Shown here piece after piece: positions 32,268 to 36,648 of a stretch of DNA of 64,000 nucleotides. Below the pieces are notes generated by a model. That model was not told the DNA's origin. It was given only the letters and a program-made list of their open reading frames with translations, and made no database searches. Both the position numbers and the translations under genes were made by a program. The DNA comes from Escherichia phage vB_EcoM_TH18, in the sequence record ON075799; one strand, given 5' to 3'. Numbering within the stretch: position 1 is the stretch's first letter; the number at the start of each line of letters is the position of its first letter.

Positions 32268-32765
32268 CTACTCACCTTTTAGCTTAAAACTTTTCAACGT
32301 TTTGATAAAGTCTTTCTCTGCTGGTGTGTAAGTGTGAACTAAACCTGTTTCTTCACAGGTGTAGGTATCATTAACCTCCATTGCATGTTGAGGGATAAAT
32401 GTACCTTCAGGAACAGGCTTATATTCTGGGTTGTAGATAAACTCCGGCAGCACAACAGCCACAGCAGTCATTGCTCCATTCAAGGCTTCCTCTTCTTCAC
32501 GCCACCAAGCATATGGATAAGTTTTGAGAGGCATAAGTTGAGCAAGAAAATCTTGGAGTACTGACTGATAACCACCATTTAAAATAATGATGGTCTTATC
32601 TTTTTCTCTCCAACATTTCAACCAGTGGTGTGCGGTTAACTCCTCTGGCGCTCCTGCTGGTTGGTCATACCATGTCATGAGTTCCGCAATAGCATGTGCC
32701 GATTGGATACCTGCATGGATACCGGAGATATACTGATTAACAACACAATACATTCTTGTTTTCAT
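32268..32765 (-). CDS. hypothetical protein, possible PTH2-like peptidyl-tRNA hydrolase fold (165 aa)
   Basis: Weak motif resemblance (GIHAGIQSAHAIAE versus remembered PTH2 GKxAAQCSHAA); needs a profile search. Confidence 0.35.
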   Translation of the reverse strand: MKTRMYCVVNQYISGIHAGIQSAHAIAELMTWYDQPAGAPEELTAHHWLKCWREKDKTIIILNGGYQSVLQDFLAQLMPLKTYPYAWWREEEEALNGAMTAVAVVLPEFIYNPEYKPVPEGTFIPQHAMEVNDTYTCEETGLVHTYTPAEKDFIKTLKSFKLKGE

Positions 32766-33043
32766 TTTTCTTTCTTCCTAAAGATTATTCTATCTTCACT
32801 AAAAATTTCCTGTAACCCAGCAGCTATCAGTGCAAATATTGCTACCCACCATACAACTAACAGGAGTACCCCAACAAGCAAATCTCTACCTGTGATCTGT
32901 TGCTCAACCCTGTAGGTAATAATAAAGAAAGCTACGGATACTAAAGCACCAACAAAGAAGTAGATAAACACTTCAGTCATTATCTCTTTTCTCCAAGTAC
33001 CTTTTTTACCATAAGGGCCACAACGTAAATTCCCACAAGACAA
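32762..33043 (-). CDS. membrane protein (93 aa)
   Basis: Hydrophobic segments. Confidence 0.45.
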   Translation of the reverse strand: MSCGNLRCGPYGKKGTWRKEIMTEVFIYFFVGALVSVAFFIITYRVEQQITGRDLLVGVLLLVVWWVAIFALIAAGLQEIFSEDRIIFRKKEK

Positions 33044-33305: not shown

Positions 33306-34562
33306 TTAGAATAACATATCCCTGCTAATTGCTTTACGAATAGCATCAATACGGGCTACTCGCACAGCTTCACCAATCTCTTTACCCTTCTTACCTTTTT
33401 CCAGAAGAGGGTTTGTGATAGCTTTAGAATCAACTTTTGTCATAGCGTCATAGGCTTCCAACAAAATATGACCTTGAAGGTAAGGTTTATGCCTAAAATC
33501 ACCACCTCTTCCTTTAGCATCACAATAACATGCATCTGCAAGTGTGTAAACCTTCATTTTCTGATCAGCTTGTCCAGCAGCTTCAAATATTTTCATGATG
33601 CTTTTTGGTTTCAAACCGTTGTTACCATCTGTGGGAGAGATGGCGTGCACTTTTGTGTGATTTTCTGCAACATATTTTGCCGTGTCACGATAGATATTAT
33701 AAATCTTTAACCTTTCGCACAAAGATTGGATAACATCCGCACCAGCTTTTTCATGACCATGCAAATTACCATTGTTCTTGTAAGTTACAGCTTTGCCAAA
33801 ATCATGGCAAAGCACAGCAAACTTGGTCAGTGGATCAGCTTCTAATTCATCGGCAACCCGTAACGCTAGAATTGTATGAGTGTAAGCATCCCCTTCTGGG
33901 TGGTGTTCTTTAGGTTGTTGTACACGACGCAGGGCTTCCAGTTCAGGAAGCTCGCCAATACGTCCCATATTGACAGCAAAAGATCTGAAATAATCACTCT
34001 TTAAGGCTTTCAACATTTCATTCCATTTACGCTCGGCGCTTATTTCTGCCAAAGAGTGTCGGTTGTCATAAGCCAGTTTAAAAGTCTCTGGGTGGATATG
34101 CCATTCTTCCCCAAGCTGGGCTTTAAATCTAAACAGGCGTAGAATACGTAACGGGTCTTCAATAAATGCCTGTGATGTATGACGTAATGTTTTAAGTCCT
34201 AAATCAACCTGGCCACCAAAAGGATCAATAATCTCACCACTGTCAACATCCATCGCCATGGAGTTGATGGTTAGATCTCTACGTGCCAAATCCTCTTCCA
34301 GAGTTACATCTGGGCTAAAGCATACCTCAAATCCTTTATGGCCTTCGCCTGTTTTTCTTTCTGTGCGTGCAAGAGCGTACTCTTCTTTTGTTTCTGGGTG
34401 AAGATAAACTGGAAAAGATGCGCCAACTTGTGTGAACCCTCTTTTCAACATCTCTTCATGCGTAGCTCCAACAACAACATAATCACGGTCTGATAATTCA
34501 CGACCCAATAATTTATCTCTAACCGCCCCACCTACCAAATATACCTTCATTTCTTCACCCAC
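33306..34562 (-). CDS. cca: tRNA nucleotidyltransferase (CCA-adding enzyme) with HD domain
   Basis: YLVGGAVRD and RRDLTINS motifs of class II nucleotidyltransferases; C-terminal HD-like histidines; 418 aa. Confidence 0.85.
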   Translation of the reverse strand: MGEEMKVYLVGGAVRDKLLGRELSDRDYVVVGATHEEMLKRGFTQVGASFPVYLHPETKEEYALARTERKTGEGHKGFEVCFSPDVTLEEDLARRDLTINSMAMDVDSGEIIDPFGGQVDLGLKTLRHTSQAFIEDPLRILRLFRFKAQLGEEWHIHPETFKLAYDNRHSLAEISAERKWNEMLKALKSDYFRSFAVNMGRIGELPELEALRRVQQPKEHHPEGDAYTHTILALRVADELEADPLTKFAVLCHDFGKAVTYKNNGNLHGHEKAGADVIQSLCERLKIYNIYRDTAKYVAENHTKVHAISPTDGNNGLKPKSIMKIFEAAGQADQKMKVYTLADACYCDAKGRGGDFRHKPYLQGHILLEAYDAMTKVDSKAITNPLLEKGKKGKEIGEAVRVARIDAIRKAISRDMLF

Positions 34563-34873
34563 ATGTTCATATAATTAACAATATCTTTTATGGTTCTCTT
34601 GCCGTCCAGTGGATAAACCATGTCATCGCTCATCCCACCGTGTTTTAGCATTGCTACCAGCCTAGTATATACCCCTTTTGGTCTTTTGCAAGTTCTTTTC
34701 TTCCATTTATGACCGTCTGGGGAGTACTCCTTATCTTCAAGAGAGATATGAAGTATATCTCCTATAAACTCTTTTGCCTGTGTGCTGTAAAGTGGACGGT
34801 AGAATATGTAGAATTTCATCGCTTGCTCCTTTGTTGTAATAACAATACCAGTGCAAGCCACCTGTGTCAACAC
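34547..34873 (-). CDS. hypothetical protein (108 aa or shorter)
   Basis: ORF only. Confidence 0.45.
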   Translation of the reverse strand: MLTQVACTGIVITTKEQAMKFYIFYRPLYSTQAKEFIGDILHISLEDKEYSPDGHKWKKRTCKRPKGVYTRLVAMLKHGGMSDDMVYPLDGKRTIKDIVNYMNMWVKK

Positions 34874-34908
34874 ATAAAGAAAAACCCGCTAAAAAGCGGG
34901 TTAATCTC

Positions 34909-35190
34909 TTACCATGTTACAAATATGTTTATAGATGTGCCTTGTTTTGTTGGTTGATAGCTAATAATATCCACCATGAAACCACCACCACGAAGATCGC
35001 CAACAATATGAGGCAGGTAATCACCCATTTCCTCCGGGAACTGTAGTGACATACCCATTCCAAATAGACCTTTCTTTGCACATTGGCTTATCCCGTTTAC
35101 TATCTGGTCGTACAGTTCCACCAGAGATTTTGGGGTATCCTTCTTTGACTTGTTCGCTATCTCTCTCATTTTGCTGGCGACATTTGCCAT
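34909..35190 (-). CDS. hypothetical protein (93 aa)
   Basis: AAGAGG ribosome-binding site; overlaps the 3' end of the methyltransferase ORF in another frame. Confidence 0.45.
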   Translation of the reverse strand: MANVASKMREIANKSKKDTPKSLVELYDQIVNGISQCAKKGLFGMGMSLQFPEEMGDYLPHIVGDLRGGGFMVDIISYQPTKQGTSINIFVTW

Positions 35191-35701
35191 CTTTACCTCT
35201 TAAAAAATAGAAAGGCTTCAAATTAAGGGTGTTCTTTTTGTCCCACACATACCATGCATACCCGCTTCCATCTGTCTTACCATCCTCTGTAAAAGATGGT
35301 CTTTGAGAAAGTACAAGCAGAGATGTTGGGGGATTATCTTGCCACCACTCCCACCTTTTCATACTTTCAAGAAAACCAAGACGTAGAAGCATGATAACGA
35401 CATCAGCATCACGTAGAGCTTTCTCAACAAACTCTTGAGCCAGTGAGTATGGAGGGTTAGAGATTATGATGTCTGTGTGATTATACTCTGTTGTCAGATA
35501 ATCAACACCTTGGCGTATTTCTCCCCAAGCACTTCCGATTGGTAGAAAATTATAAATCCTACCGGAAGCTCTGCACGGCTCCATATATTTCTTTTTCATA
35601 TCTATGGGGATGACTTCCAACAGGGCTTCAACAGCCCATACTGGGGTTTCATACGTGTCGTACTCTCTCCGATCACCCTTCCTTTTCAGAGGTGCTACCA
35701 T
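35021..35701 (-). CDS. DNA amino-methyltransferase (N6-adenine or N4-cytosine), NPPY motif
   Basis: IISNPPY catalytic motif and upstream SAM-binding-like segment; C-terminal 50 aa low-complexity, possible frameshift. Confidence 0.6.
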   Translation of the reverse strand: MVAPLKRKGDRREYDTYETPVWAVEALLEVIPIDMKKKYMEPCRASGRIYNFLPIGSAWGEIRQGVDYLTTEYNHTDIIISNPPYSLAQEFVEKALRDADVVIMLLRLGFLESMKRWEWWQDNPPTSLLVLSQRPSFTEDGKTDGSGYAWYVWDKKNTLNLKPFYFLRGKDGKCRQQNERDSEQVKEGYPKISGGTVRPDSKRDKPMCKERSIWNGYVTTVPGGNG

Positions 35702-36648
35702 CAGTTACCAACCTTTTCGATAGTTTCTTTCAAAATATCTTCGGAAACACTAAGAATTTGATTCAGTAGAATGTCTCTTTTGTGTGGTATTACTCTGGTC
35801 TCATTCTCACCATATTGCAGGTTGTTTAATTGCGCAAGAATTTCTTTTAGCTCGTCAACGTTAAAACCATCAAAATCACGGTCGTTCAAAGTTGACATAT
35901 TGAAACTAAAATTCTCGCCACCAACGGTAATGTTCATAAGCATTTCTTGTACCTCACCCTTAGGAACGGCATCTATGTTTTTGGGTGTGACATTCTTAAC
36001 CACTGTTGTTTTTGTGGTTTTTAGGCCAGTTACATACCGCAAACCTTGCTGTTCTCTTCGGATATTCTCTTTATCCAGTAAAGCGGCTTCAGTGCGTACC
36101 AAAATATCTTCTTCTGTCAGCCAAACTTCCCCACCACCTTTAATGGTTTCCATTTCTTCAGGTGTTAGCACATCCTTATAGAAATGATCGAAGACACGAT
36201 CAAAGTAGTCTTTTTGGAACACAGCTTGGCGGTAAATGTTGGATCCGTCCCCGCCTATCCAACCCTGATAGTTATGGAACATAAAAATTGTCAATGGTGA
36301 GACAGTTCTGCGCTCACATGCCAACCATAATACTGTTCCTGCTGAACACACTTGGCCTTCTGCATGAACAATAACCATGGCCTGACTTTCTCGGATGGCG
36401 CTAACGTATGCCATAGCAATAGCAACATCCCCACCCAATGTATTTATAATAATGCGTACTGTATCCTCTGGATTGGCTGCACGAATTGTTTGTAATCGCT
36501 CTTGGTGGTCTTCCAACCAATGCATCTCATTAACGTATATGACATGATTATTAGCATGAGCACGATATGTAAAAACGTTAGCAGTCTCTACACGGTTAAC
36601 ATTAAAACCATTATTCAGTTTTTGCATTACAACCTTCTCCGTTTTCAA
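35701..36648 (-). CDS. ClpP/S14-like serine protease family protein (315 aa)
   Basis: INTLGGDV and GQVCSAGT segments resemble ClpP active-site regions. Confidence 0.5.
   Translation of the reverse strand: MKTEKVVMQKLNNGFNVNRVETANVFTYRAHANNHVIYVNEMHWLEDHQERLQTIRAANPEDTVRIIINTLGGDVAIAMAYVSAIRESQAMVIVHAEGQVCSAGTVLWLACERRTVSPLTIFMFHNYQGWIGGDGSNIYRQAVFQKDYFDRVFDHFYKDVLTPEEMETIKGGGEVWLTEEDILVRTEAALLDKENIRREQQGLRYVTGLKTTKTTVVKNVTPKNIDAVPKGEVQEMLMNITVGGENFSFNMSTLNDRDFDGFNVDELKEILAQLNNLQYGENETRVIPHKRDILLNQILSVSEDILKETIEKVGN

What the first reader, a model, noticed from the sequence alone, without database searches (positions are those of the whole stretch)
34909..35701. DNA methyltransferase ORF with a low-complexity tail overlapping the next gene by 170 bp
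The NPPY-motif methyltransferase ORF runs to 35021, but its last 50 or so residues are low-complexity and overlap, in another frame, a well-formed gene (34909-35190) that has its own AAGAGG ribosome-binding site. This suggests a frameshift in the methyltransferase, a programmed recoding event, or a genuine overprinted gene.
Basis: seen in the sequence. Interest (0 to 1): 0.35.

Follow-up and report, generated by a model that had tools for sequence, protein, structure and literature searches.

The report
Methyltransferase tail overprinted on neighbouring gene
A phage DNA methyltransferase has lost its old stop codon and now reads about 56 extra codons through the start of the next gene in another frame, and this double-coding stretch has been kept open in many related phages, so it is a real, conserved gene overlap rather than an error, though of a known kind.

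Summary
On the minus strand a 226-aa NPPY methyltransferase (35701..35021) overlaps by 170 nt a 93-aa gene (35190..34909) that has its own AAGAGG ribosome-binding site.

It is not a sequencing frameshift. The same 225-227-aa methyltransferase, overlapping the same small gene in the same register, occurs in four Vequintavirinae genera (Avuna-, Seuna-, Mydo-, Henunavirus) and in further metagenomic lineages. Outgroups have 166-181-aa enzymes; in FV3 the stop overlaps the small gene's start (ATGA).

Synonymous sites in the methyltransferase core are saturated between lineages. Even so, 12 of the 15 stacked lineages (13 of 16 with L020) keep the tail frame open for 54-56 codons, where 2.8-5.3 stops are expected. 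It closes at the same nucleotide, a T kept at a synonymous site before a conserved Asp codon. Three lineages stop earlier, but never within about the first 30 tail codons.

The tail is predicted disordered. The small gene is the more constrained frame, and public records omit or truncate it.

A slippery U UUU UUA at the junction and a prfB-like context at the tail stop are not conserved, so programmed recoding is unsupported.

Verdict: a genuine overprinted C-terminal extension created by stop-codon loss. The tail's function is unknown; a flexible charged DNA-contact arm is my guess. Moderate interest.

The parts
35201..35701 (-). Methyltransferase core, residues 1-167, ending in the family's C-terminal PFYFL motif. 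N6-adenine type: NPPY motif IV, EPCRASG motif I.
   Evidence: ORF. PHROG 799 'DNA methyltransferase', E=3e-80. Profile against PDB: best match M.TaqI, E=2.6e-6. AF2 pLDDT about 90+ over residues 20-170. Foldseek finds type I HsdM, PacII and similar Rossmann methyltransferases. Outgroup enzymes end 0-10 residues after this motif.
35021..35200 (-). Overprinted C-terminal extension of the methyltransferase (residues 168-226 plus TGA at 35023..35021). From 35190 down it is read in the -1 register of the small gene.
   Evidence: Conserved length and end point in 12 stacked lineages plus L020. Stop avoidance. pLDDT <50.
34909..35190 (-). 93-aa gene of unknown function (PHROG 12158; the truncated annotations form PHROG 15143). 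The more strongly constrained of the two frames.
   Evidence: Homologues with conserved start and SD in all lineages, including FV3 where there is no long overlap. All 5 window/Av-05 differences in the overlap are synonymous here. AF2 gives a single alpha-alpha-beta-alpha-beta-beta domain that uses all 93 residues, pLDDT 77.
35196..35201 (-). Shine-Dalgarno AAGAGG of the small gene. It also encodes Leu-Arg-Gly of the methyltransferase (GGAGGG = Leu-Glu-Gly in most relatives).
   Evidence: Sequence.
35201..35207 (-). T TTT TTA heptamer in the methyltransferase frame (codons Tyr165-Phe166-Leu167). A -1 slip would give ...FFKR then stop. Not conserved outside Avunavirus and Mydovirus.
   Evidence: No stable structure downstream, z=0.04.
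35021..35023 (-). Conserved tail stop TGA = third base of the codon before the small protein's conserved Asp57 plus the GA of that Asp codon.
   Evidence: Codon before Asp is GGT, AAT, AGT, CTT, CGT, GTT, GCT or CAT (eight different amino acids, always T-ending) in every full-tail lineage. TAA at the same site in L020, where Asp became Asn.
34883..34902 (-). Intrinsic-terminator-like hairpin plus T-run just after the small gene. Probably the end of the ClpP-like protease / methyltransferase / small-gene transcription unit.

Best explanation
The methyltransferase and the small gene genuinely share 170 nt in two reading frames.

Origin (inferred from outgroups): the ancestral enzyme was about 170 aa and ended at or next to the small gene's start. 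In FV3 the stop and start still overlap as ATGA. In the common ancestor of Avuna-, Seuna-, Mydo- and Henunavirus that stop was lost. Ribosomes translating the methyltransferase then read on across the small gene's ribosome-binding site and its first ~56 codons, one base out of register, to a TGA that lies across the codon before Asp57 and the Asp57 codon itself.

Shown: the small gene keeps its own SD and start, and is the more strongly constrained frame. Selection also removes synonymous changes in the small gene that would create a stop in the tail frame, and it keeps the T that makes the terminal stop.

Inferred: the extension is therefore translated and visible to selection. It is a disordered, charged appendage. 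Its first ~30 residues (the ECRKQDARDRKxRRK-type segment; KCRQQNERDSEQVK in the window) are the part that is never lost. My best guess at function is a flexible nucleic-acid-contacting arm for a minimal enzyme that has a catalytic domain only and no target-recognition domain.
For: - **Not an error.** The ORF is identical in three 100%-identical records, in Av-05 at 93% identity, and in a metagenomic 90% cluster of 72 member sequences.
- **Conserved architecture.** ORFs of 226/226/227/227 aa over a 92-93-aa gene occur in PVP-SE1, SPLA5a, GAP31, 4MG, Ro1, KB57, Hena1, SNUABM_01 and nine metagenomic contigs.
- **Outgroups are short.** FV3 has 177 aa with an AAATGA stop/start overlap, P7_Pc 170 aa, ESCO5 169 aa, and many metagenomic proteins 166-171 aa.
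- **Lineages are effectively independent.** Synonymous-codon identity in the methyltransferase core is 0.41.
- **Stop avoidance.** 2.8-5.3 stops are expected per lineage and none is seen in 12 lineages; P per lineage is 0.0007-0.04 (0.0002-0.002 with the window's codon table). T at stop-creating third positions is 4/177, against 76/356 at other third positions of the same stretch (Fisher 1.4e-10). It is 20/68 against 205/425 in the non-overlapped 3' part. FV3 has 5 stops in the homologous stretch.
- **Fixed end point.** The codon before Asp always ends in T, although it encodes eight different amino acids. L020 has TAA at the same site.
- **Frame-specific substitution pattern.** The ratio of changes silent in the tail to changes silent in the small gene is 516:630 in the proximal overlap, 503:1103 in the distal overlap and 343:1323 in the non-overlap control. 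Proximal tail amino-acid identity (0.50) equals that of the small protein (0.53).
- **Truncated tails** end after 32, 40 and 54 residues, never earlier. L026 has an independent-looking, very basic ~31-aa tail over the same gene. L025 has a basic ~20-aa tail with no overlap.
- **Structure.** Tail pLDDT is <50.
Against: - There is no expression data (no ribosome profiling or proteomics), so translation of the tail is inferred only from evolutionary signatures.
- Amino-acid constraint on the tail is weak. All 5 window/Av-05 substitutions in the overlap change the tail and spare the small protein. Distal tail identity is only 0.26-0.36.
- Synonymous-codon identity is no higher in the overlap (0.58) than in the non-overlapped 3' part of the small gene (0.65).
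- Reduced third-position variation near the small gene's start could reflect translation-initiation constraints rather than tail coding.
- Three lineages tolerate shorter tails.
- The tail as a whole is roughly neutral in charge (-5 to +5), and its first 30 residues carry only -1 to +4. This weakens the DNA-binding-arm idea.
- The lineages are related and mosaic, so the statistical tests are not fully independent.
Confidence: 0.72

Rival explanations
1. Tolerated read-through junk. The stop was lost once, and the tail is translated but has no function. The open frame persists through shared ancestry and a local shortage of T-ending codons.
For: Substitutions between the window and Av-05 ignore the tail's amino acids. 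Distal tail identity is low. Third-position T is generally low in the overlap even at harmless sites, 21% against 48% in the 3' part. Three lineages have shortened tails.
Against: Synonymous sites in the neighbouring core are saturated (0.41), so ancestry cannot hold 10-14 stop-prone sites per lineage free of T in 12 lineages. Within the same stretch, T is about 9-fold rarer at stop-creating sites than at other sites (4/177 against 76/356). The terminal stop is kept by a conserved synonymous T. No stop occurs in the first ~30 codons in any lineage.
Confidence: 0.12
2. Regulatory overlap. What matters is ribosome traffic, not the tail peptide. Methyltransferase-frame ribosomes running across the small gene's SD and start, and terminating at a fixed point 56 codons in, tune translation of the small gene by occlusion, by unfolding mRNA, or by termination-reinitiation.
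For: The outgroup FV3 has classical ATGA stop/start coupling at the same junction. This would explain an open frame with weakly constrained amino acids and a fixed stop position. In Avuna- and Seunavirus an in-frame ATG of the small gene lies 2 nt before the tail stop (ATGGGTGA, ATGAATGA).
Against: The internal ATG is absent in Mydovirus and Hena1 (CTG, CAG). Three lineages end the tail elsewhere. The small gene has a strong SD of its own in all lineages. The AF2 model uses all 93 residues as one domain, so a C-terminal fragment is unlikely to fold alone.
Confidence: 0.08
3. Programmed -1 ribosomal frameshift at U UUU UUA (35207..35201). This would make a short core-only methyltransferase (...YFFKR, then stop) in addition to the long form.
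For: There is a canonical X XXY YYZ heptamer in the correct frame exactly at the core/tail junction in the window and Av-05, and U UUU UUG in Ro1 and KB57. The -1 frame stops after 3 codons.
Against: The heptamer is absent in 11 of the 15 tail-bearing lineages stacked (TTC CTG, TAC TTG, CAT TTG and others). It is explained by the Phe-Leu codons of the conserved PFYFL motif. There is no stable downstream structure (z=0.04) and no upstream SD-like stimulator at the dnaX-type spacing.
Confidence: 0.04
4. Sequencing or assembly frameshift in the T6 run, or a decaying methyltransferase pseudogene.
For: A homopolymer (T6) sits exactly at the junction. One base fewer gives ...FYF then stop, and one more gives ...FFKR then stop.
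Against: The same frame and length are found in independent genomes of four genera, most without any homopolymer there, and in many metagenomic assemblies. The core is intact with all motifs and a confident fold.
Confidence: 0.01
5. +1 recoding at the conserved tail stop (NNN UGA UUA read as NNN-GAU-UAC). This would fuse the methyltransferase plus linker to the conserved C-terminal 37 residues (DYLPHIVGDLRGGGF...) of the small protein.
For: The stop is conserved at the boundary before the small protein's most conserved segment. It is followed in the +1 frame by an Asp codon, as in prfB and antizyme. The window and Seunavirus have GGAGGA 3 nt before the last sense codon, a prfB-like spacing. 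It would explain a linker that must stay open but has free sequence.
Against: The last sense codon is not conserved or shift-prone (GGG, GAA, GAG, GCT, GCG, GGT). The SD-like element is missing in Mydo- and Henunavirus. The stop context is UGA U, not the weak UGA C. Three lineages stop earlier. The GGAGGA is fully explained by the small protein's Pro-Glu-Glu codons.
Confidence: 0.03

Closest known systems
Same-strand overlapping genes created by stop-codon loss or overprinting (phiX174 A/B/K and D/E; lambda Rz/Rz1). General mechanism as reviewed in PMC2268670 and PMC8227390.
   Same: One DNA stretch encodes two proteins in different frames. The newer frame is compositionally biased and predicted disordered. 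The older frame carries most of the purifying selection. Origin is loss of a stop between contiguous genes in different frames.
   Different: The new coding sequence here is a C-terminal extension of an existing enzyme rather than a separate new protein. The overlap covers the neighbour's ribosome-binding site and N-terminal 60%. Translation of the new frame has not been demonstrated experimentally.
Methyltransferase / small-gene junction of Vequintavirus (rV5, FV3)
   Same: Homologous ClpP-like protease, methyltransferase and small gene in the same order. Same small protein family (...DYFPHIVGDLRAGG...TW).
   Different: The FV3 methyltransferase is 177 aa and stops in an AAATGA that overlaps the small gene's ATG. 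The homologous stretch of the small gene has 5 stops in the frame that is open in the window.
Gamma-type N6-adenine DNA methyltransferases (M.TaqI, type I HsdM catalytic domain)
   Same: Motif I then NPPY order. Rossmann fold. Best sequence match in the PDB is M.TaqI residues 21-112. Foldseek top matches are HsdM and PacII.
   Different: The core is only ~167 aa, with no target-recognition domain and no HsdS partner nearby. Scores are below the Pfam and NCBIfam cut-offs for EcoRI_methylase, Dam and phage_N6A_met. It carries the overprinted tail.
Programmed ribosomal frameshifts in bacteria and phages (dnaX -1, prfB +1, tail-chaperone G/GT)
   Same: The window has a U UUU UUA heptamer at the junction, and an SD-like GGAGGA 3 nt before the last sense codon and UGA.
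   Different: Neither element is conserved across the lineages that share the overlap. There is no stimulatory structure. The zero-frame product already accounts for the conserved ORF.

Membership tests
Conserved dual-coding (overprinted) same-strand gene overlap | Two long ORFs in different frames on the same strand sharing sequence | tested here: met
   35701..35021 and 35190..34909 share 170 nt; the small gene is +1 relative to the methyltransferase.
Conserved dual-coding (overprinted) same-strand gene overlap | Both frames kept open in diverged relatives beyond what the other frame's coding would give | tested here: met
   12 stacked lineages plus L020, from 4 genera and metagenomes. P(open) is 0.0007-0.04 each, with 2.8-5.3 stops expected. 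T at stop-creating sites is 4/177 against 76/356. Core synonymous identity is 0.41.
Conserved dual-coding (overprinted) same-strand gene overlap | Amino-acid-level purifying selection on the newer frame | tested here: inconclusive
   In the proximal overlap, tail identity is 0.50 against 0.53 for the small protein, and the substitution classes shift (516:630 against 343:1323 in the control). But synonymous identity is not raised in the overlap, and 5 of 5 recent substitutions alter the tail.
Conserved dual-coding (overprinted) same-strand gene overlap | Both products actually translated | not testable with these tools
   Needs ribosome profiling or proteomics of infected cells. No such data were found in the literature searches.
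N6-adenine DNA methyltransferase, gamma type (TaqI / HsdM-like catalytic domain) | (D/N)PP(Y/F) catalytic motif IV after a glycine-containing SAM-binding motif I, on a Rossmann fold | tested here: met
   NPPY is invariant at residues 82-85 and G47 is invariant in EPCRASG. M.TaqI is matched at E=2.6e-6. The AF2 core is confident, and Foldseek finds HsdM and PacII at E~1e-5.
N6-adenine DNA methyltransferase, gamma type (TaqI / HsdM-like catalytic domain) | Separate target-recognition domain or specificity subunit | tested here: not met
   The core is ~167 aa. Matches cover only the catalytic domain of the 421-aa TaqI. The neighbouring genes are a ClpP-like protease and small unknowns.
Pfam Dam (PF05869) / NCBIfam phage_N6A_met (TIGR01712) | Score at or above the curated cut-off | tested here: not met
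   PF05869 scores 15.3 bits against a cut-off of 28.1. TIGR01712 scores 13.4 against 97.
Programmed -1 ribosomal frameshift site | X XXY YYZ heptamer in frame, conserved among relatives, with a downstream structure or upstream SD stimulator | tested here: not met
   The heptamer is present in the window and Ro1 only. The downstream 131 nt fold no better than shuffles, z=0.04.
prfB-type +1 frameshift at a stop codon | Shift-prone P-site codon that re-pairs in +1, a weak UGA C stop, and an SD-like element 3 nt upstream, all conserved | tested here: not met
   P-site codons are GGG, GAA, GAG, GCT, GCG and GGT. The stop context is UGA U. The SD-like GGAGGA occurs only in Avuna- and Seunavirus.

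The most novel reading that the evidence does not exclude
The conserved stop, at the boundary before the small protein's most conserved segment, is a recoding or handover point. A fraction of ribosomes finishing the methyltransferase tail would shift +1 (UGA UUA read as GAU UAC), or reinitiate. That would yield a methyltransferase-linker-DYLPHIVGDLRGGGF... fusion, or a C-terminal fragment. On this reading the tail is a sequence-free linker that must only stay open.
Probability: 0.03. Interest if true: 0.7.

Novelty: new member of a known kind. Interest (0 to 1): 0.35.

Why it matters
**An unusually clean natural example.** It shows how a protein gains new sequence by losing a stop codon and overprinting a neighbour. 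The ancestral state (ATGA stop/start coupling) still exists in rV5/FV3-type phages. The derived state has been held for long enough that synonymous sites are saturated. Partial reversals (shortened tails) mark out which part of the new sequence is indispensable.

**A systematic annotation error.** The 92-93-aa gene is missing from the annotations of phages 18-1-2, Ro1, KB57 and Hena1. It is cut to 39-52 aa in Av-05, PVP-SE1-like phages, GAP31, 4MG and SNUABM_01. This is why a 5.8-billion-protein database holds only seven entries for it.

**A question about the enzyme.** If the tail is functional, it bears on how a minimal methyltransferase with a catalytic domain only engages DNA.

Tried and rejected
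- **Sequencing error in the T6 run.** Rejected by conservation of the frame in genomes that lack the homopolymer.
- **-1 frameshift.** Heptamer not conserved and no downstream structure.
- **prfB-like +1 shift at the tail stop.** Context not conserved.
- **Window versus Av-05 identity profile as a test of extra constraint in the overlap.** Uninformative: the whole methyltransferase/small-gene block is 97-99% identical inside a mosaic genome.
- **Synonymous-codon identity in the overlap versus the rest of the small gene.** No excess in the overlap (0.58 against 0.65), so this gave no support for amino-acid-level constraint on the tail.
- **Function of the small protein.** No significant Pfam or NCBIfam match; PHROGs gives only families of unknown function. 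No PDB fold match at E<0.001.
- **IMG/VR scan with the small protein.** Returned only Av-05 and PVP-SE1.
- **Literature searches for this overlap or this enzyme's tail.** Nothing relevant found.
- **GE_vB_MG (L012).** An UNVERIFIED record with a broken methyltransferase; excluded.

Full report
**1. What is there**

All genes in this part of the window are on the minus strand.
- The ORF list and sequence show a 226-aa ORF at 35701..35021 with an NPPY motif.
- A 93-aa ORF lies at 35190..34909. Its ATG (35190..35188) is preceded by AAGAGG (35201..35196) at a 5-nt spacing.
- The two share 170 nt (35190..35021). The small gene is +1 relative to the methyltransferase, so each tail codon is made of the third base of one small-gene codon plus the first two bases of the next.
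- A ClpP-like protease gene ends where the methyltransferase starts.
- An intrinsic-terminator-like hairpin (34902..34883) follows the small gene.

The window is an Avunavirus (Vequintavirinae). It is 100% identical here to Escherichia phages 18-1-2, 19-1-2 and 24-2-1, and 93% identical to Av-05.

**2. Is it an error?**

No. Av-05 has the same 226-aa ORF and the same 93-aa ORF.

tblastn with the full methyltransferase aligns through the tail in Seunavirus and Mydovirus, but only to residue ~167-170 in Vequintavirus, Certrevirus, Phapecoctavirus and more distant phages.

Reading the loci directly gives:
- Tail-bearing: PVP-SE1, SPLA5a, GAP31 and 4MG (Seunavirus); Ro1 and KB57 (Mydovirus); Hena1 and pEp_SNUABM_01 (Henunavirus). 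All carry a 226-227-aa methyltransferase whose last ~56 codons overlap a homologous 92-93-aa gene in the same register.
- FV3 (Vequintavirus) has a 177-aa enzyme. Its stop overlaps the ATG of the homologous small gene (AAATGA).
- P7_Pc (Certrevirus) has a 170-aa enzyme followed by a hairpin, with no small-gene homologue there.
- ESCO5 has a 169-aa enzyme ending ...PFYFV.

A search of 5.8 billion proteins found many more proteins of 225-227 aa, a majority of 166-171 aa, and a few of intermediate length. Nine of their contigs all show the protease / methyltransferase / small-gene order with the same frame relation.

**3. Is the open tail frame more than a by-product?**

- *Background in this phage.* In its long ORFs, this alternative frame has 0.109 stops per codon, and only 0.2% of 56-codon windows are open.
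- *Resampling.* Resampling synonymous codons of each lineage's small gene with that lineage's own codon usage predicts 2.8-5.3 stops in the overlapped stretch. It leaves the stretch open in 0.07-4% of trials. Twelve lineages have none (with the window's codon table gives 0.02-0.2%).
- *Independence.* Synonymous-codon identity in the adjacent methyltransferase core averages 0.41, which is near saturation.
- *Internal control.* Within the overlapped stretch, third positions that would create a stop if T carry T in 4 of 177 cases. Those four are stops in the three lineages with shortened tails (the early stops themselves plus one further downstream). Other T-capable third positions in the same stretch carry T in 76 of 356 cases (Fisher 1.4e-10). 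In the non-overlapped 3' part the figures are 20/68 against 205/425. In FV3's homologous stretch they are 5/10.

**4. The end of the tail**

In every full-length lineage the tail stops at the same nucleotide. The stop is the T of the codon before the small protein's conserved Asp plus the GA of that Asp codon.
- That preceding codon is GGT, AAT, AGT, CTT, CGT, GTT, GCT or CAT. These encode eight different amino acids, and all end in T.
- In L020 the Asp is Asn, and the stop is TAA at the same place.
- FV3, which has no tail, has TCA GAC there.

Without this stop the frame would run into WRSSWWWFHGGYY-type sequence for 20 or more codons. That gives a plausible reason for keeping it, provided the frame is translated.

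**5. Which part of the tail matters**

A gapless stack of 15 lineages shows three with earlier stops: after 32, 40 and 54 residues counted from the FL of PFYFL. None stops sooner.

L026 is a more distant lineage. It has a very basic ~31-residue tail (KEWKNRERKRKPKKSSRKSKRKEKNTS) over the same small gene. L025 has a basic ~20-residue tail with no overlap at all.

The proximal segment is well conserved in Seuna-, Mydovirus and several metagenomic lineages (LEGQ[S/D]DECRKQDARDR+xRRK).
- Between Seuna- and Mydovirus, the small protein's V->A, N->S and E->G changes are silent in the tail.
- Mean pairwise amino-acid identity in the first 16 overlapped codons is 0.50 for the tail and 0.53 for the small protein. 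Further in it is 0.26-0.36 against 0.40-0.56.
- The ratio of substitutions silent only in the tail to those silent only in the small gene falls from 516:630 (proximal) to 503:1103 (distal) to 343:1323 (non-overlap control).

This is suggestive but not decisive. The LEG codons double as the small gene's SD (GGAGGG). Start-proximal codons may be constrained for initiation. Synonymous identity is no higher in the overlap than in the rest of the small gene. All five window/Av-05 differences in the overlap spare the small protein and change the tail.

**6. The proteins**

- *Methyltransferase.* The core matches PHROG 799. It matches no Pfam or NCBIfam family above cut-off. By profile it is closest to M.TaqI. 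AlphaFold2 gives a confident Rossmann core and a tail with pLDDT <50 apart from a weak helix at 175-186. Foldseek finds type I HsdM and PacII-type N6-adenine methyltransferases. It is a minimal enzyme with a catalytic domain only.
- *Small protein.* It has no known family or fold match. It is predicted as one compact alpha-alpha-beta-alpha-beta-beta domain that needs all 93 residues. This argues against the 39-52-aa annotations in public records. It also fits with only seven database entries for the gene.

**7. Recoding**

The junction in the window reads TA-T TTT TTA-AGA, a canonical slippery heptamer, and the -1 frame stops after FFKR. However:
- the heptamer is seen only in the Avunavirus sequences (window and Av-05, whose junction is identical) and, as TTTTTTG, in the Mydovirus sequences among the lineages examined;
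- nothing folds downstream;
- the T-run is simply the Phe-Leu codons of PFYFL.

At the tail stop, the window has GGAGGA-AAT-GGG-TGA, which recalls prfB. But the P-site codon and the SD-like element vary or vanish in other genera. I therefore treat recoding as unsupported.

**8. Conclusion**

This is a genuine, anciently conserved two-frame overlap created by loss of the methyltransferase's stop codon. That route to overlapping genes is recognised in the literature (PMC2268670, PMC8227390). The small gene is the older and more constrained frame. The methyltransferase extension is a newer, disordered, charged appendage whose reading frame and end point are maintained by selection. Its proximal ~30 residues are the likely functional part.

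Its function is not established. A flexible DNA-contacting arm for a minimal methyltransferase is my preferred guess. A role in tuning small-gene translation is the main alternative. I found no published description of this overlap in the searchable library.

Noticed in passing
window 34909-35190 (-); L001, L002, L003, L004, L010, L011, L013, L014, L015: The 92-93-aa gene is absent from the annotations of phages 18-1-2, Ro1, KB57 and Hena1. It is cut to 39-52 aa in Av-05, SPLA5a, GAP31, 4MG and SNUABM_01, evidently because gene callers disallow the long overlap. PHROG 15143 (49 aa) is built from these truncated calls.
   Followed up: yes
window 35700-36100 and 32600-33000 versus Av-05 (L002): Identity to Av-05 is mosaic. 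It is 97-99% across the methyltransferase, small gene and CCA-enzyme block. It drops to 67-82% in the 3' part of the ClpP-like protease gene and to 46-67% around 32600-33000, which suggests recombination patches.
   Followed up: no
P0033 versus Hena1 (L013) and the Certrevirus type: A metagenomic 169-aa methyltransferase is identical to Hena1 over roughly the first 115 residues. It then switches to the Certrevirus-type C-terminal half (...RRFEFWDKYPLDHLITLSK...PFYWVS), which has no tail. This looks like recombination inside the gene that swaps tail-bearing and tail-less C-terminal modules.
   Followed up: partly
L020 2180-2668: An HNH_3 homing-endonuclease-like gene is inserted directly after the small gene in one metagenomic relative.
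   Followed up: no
L014 2259-2673; L016, L017, L018, L019, L020, L024: A GmrSD_N/DUF262-domain gene lies a few genes downstream of the small gene in many relatives. This domain is typical of restriction enzymes that depend on DNA modification. No equivalent was looked for in the window.
   Followed up: no
window 33306-34562 (-): The phage encodes a 418-aa CCA-adding tRNA nucleotidyltransferase (PolyA_pol head, RNA-binding and HD domains) two genes downstream of the overlap.
   Followed up: no
window 34842-34870 (-): A strong sigma-70-like promoter match (TTGACA, 17 nt, TG-TATTGT; 10 of 12) lies directly after the terminator-like hairpin and ahead of the next gene (34873..34547). This suggests a transcription-unit boundary right after the small gene.
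   Followed up: partly
small gene 3' part, all lineages (window 34909-35020): Synonymous-codon identity between genera is unexpectedly high in the non-overlapped 3' third of the small gene (0.65, against 0.41 in the methyltransferase core). The overlap does not explain this.
   Followed up: no
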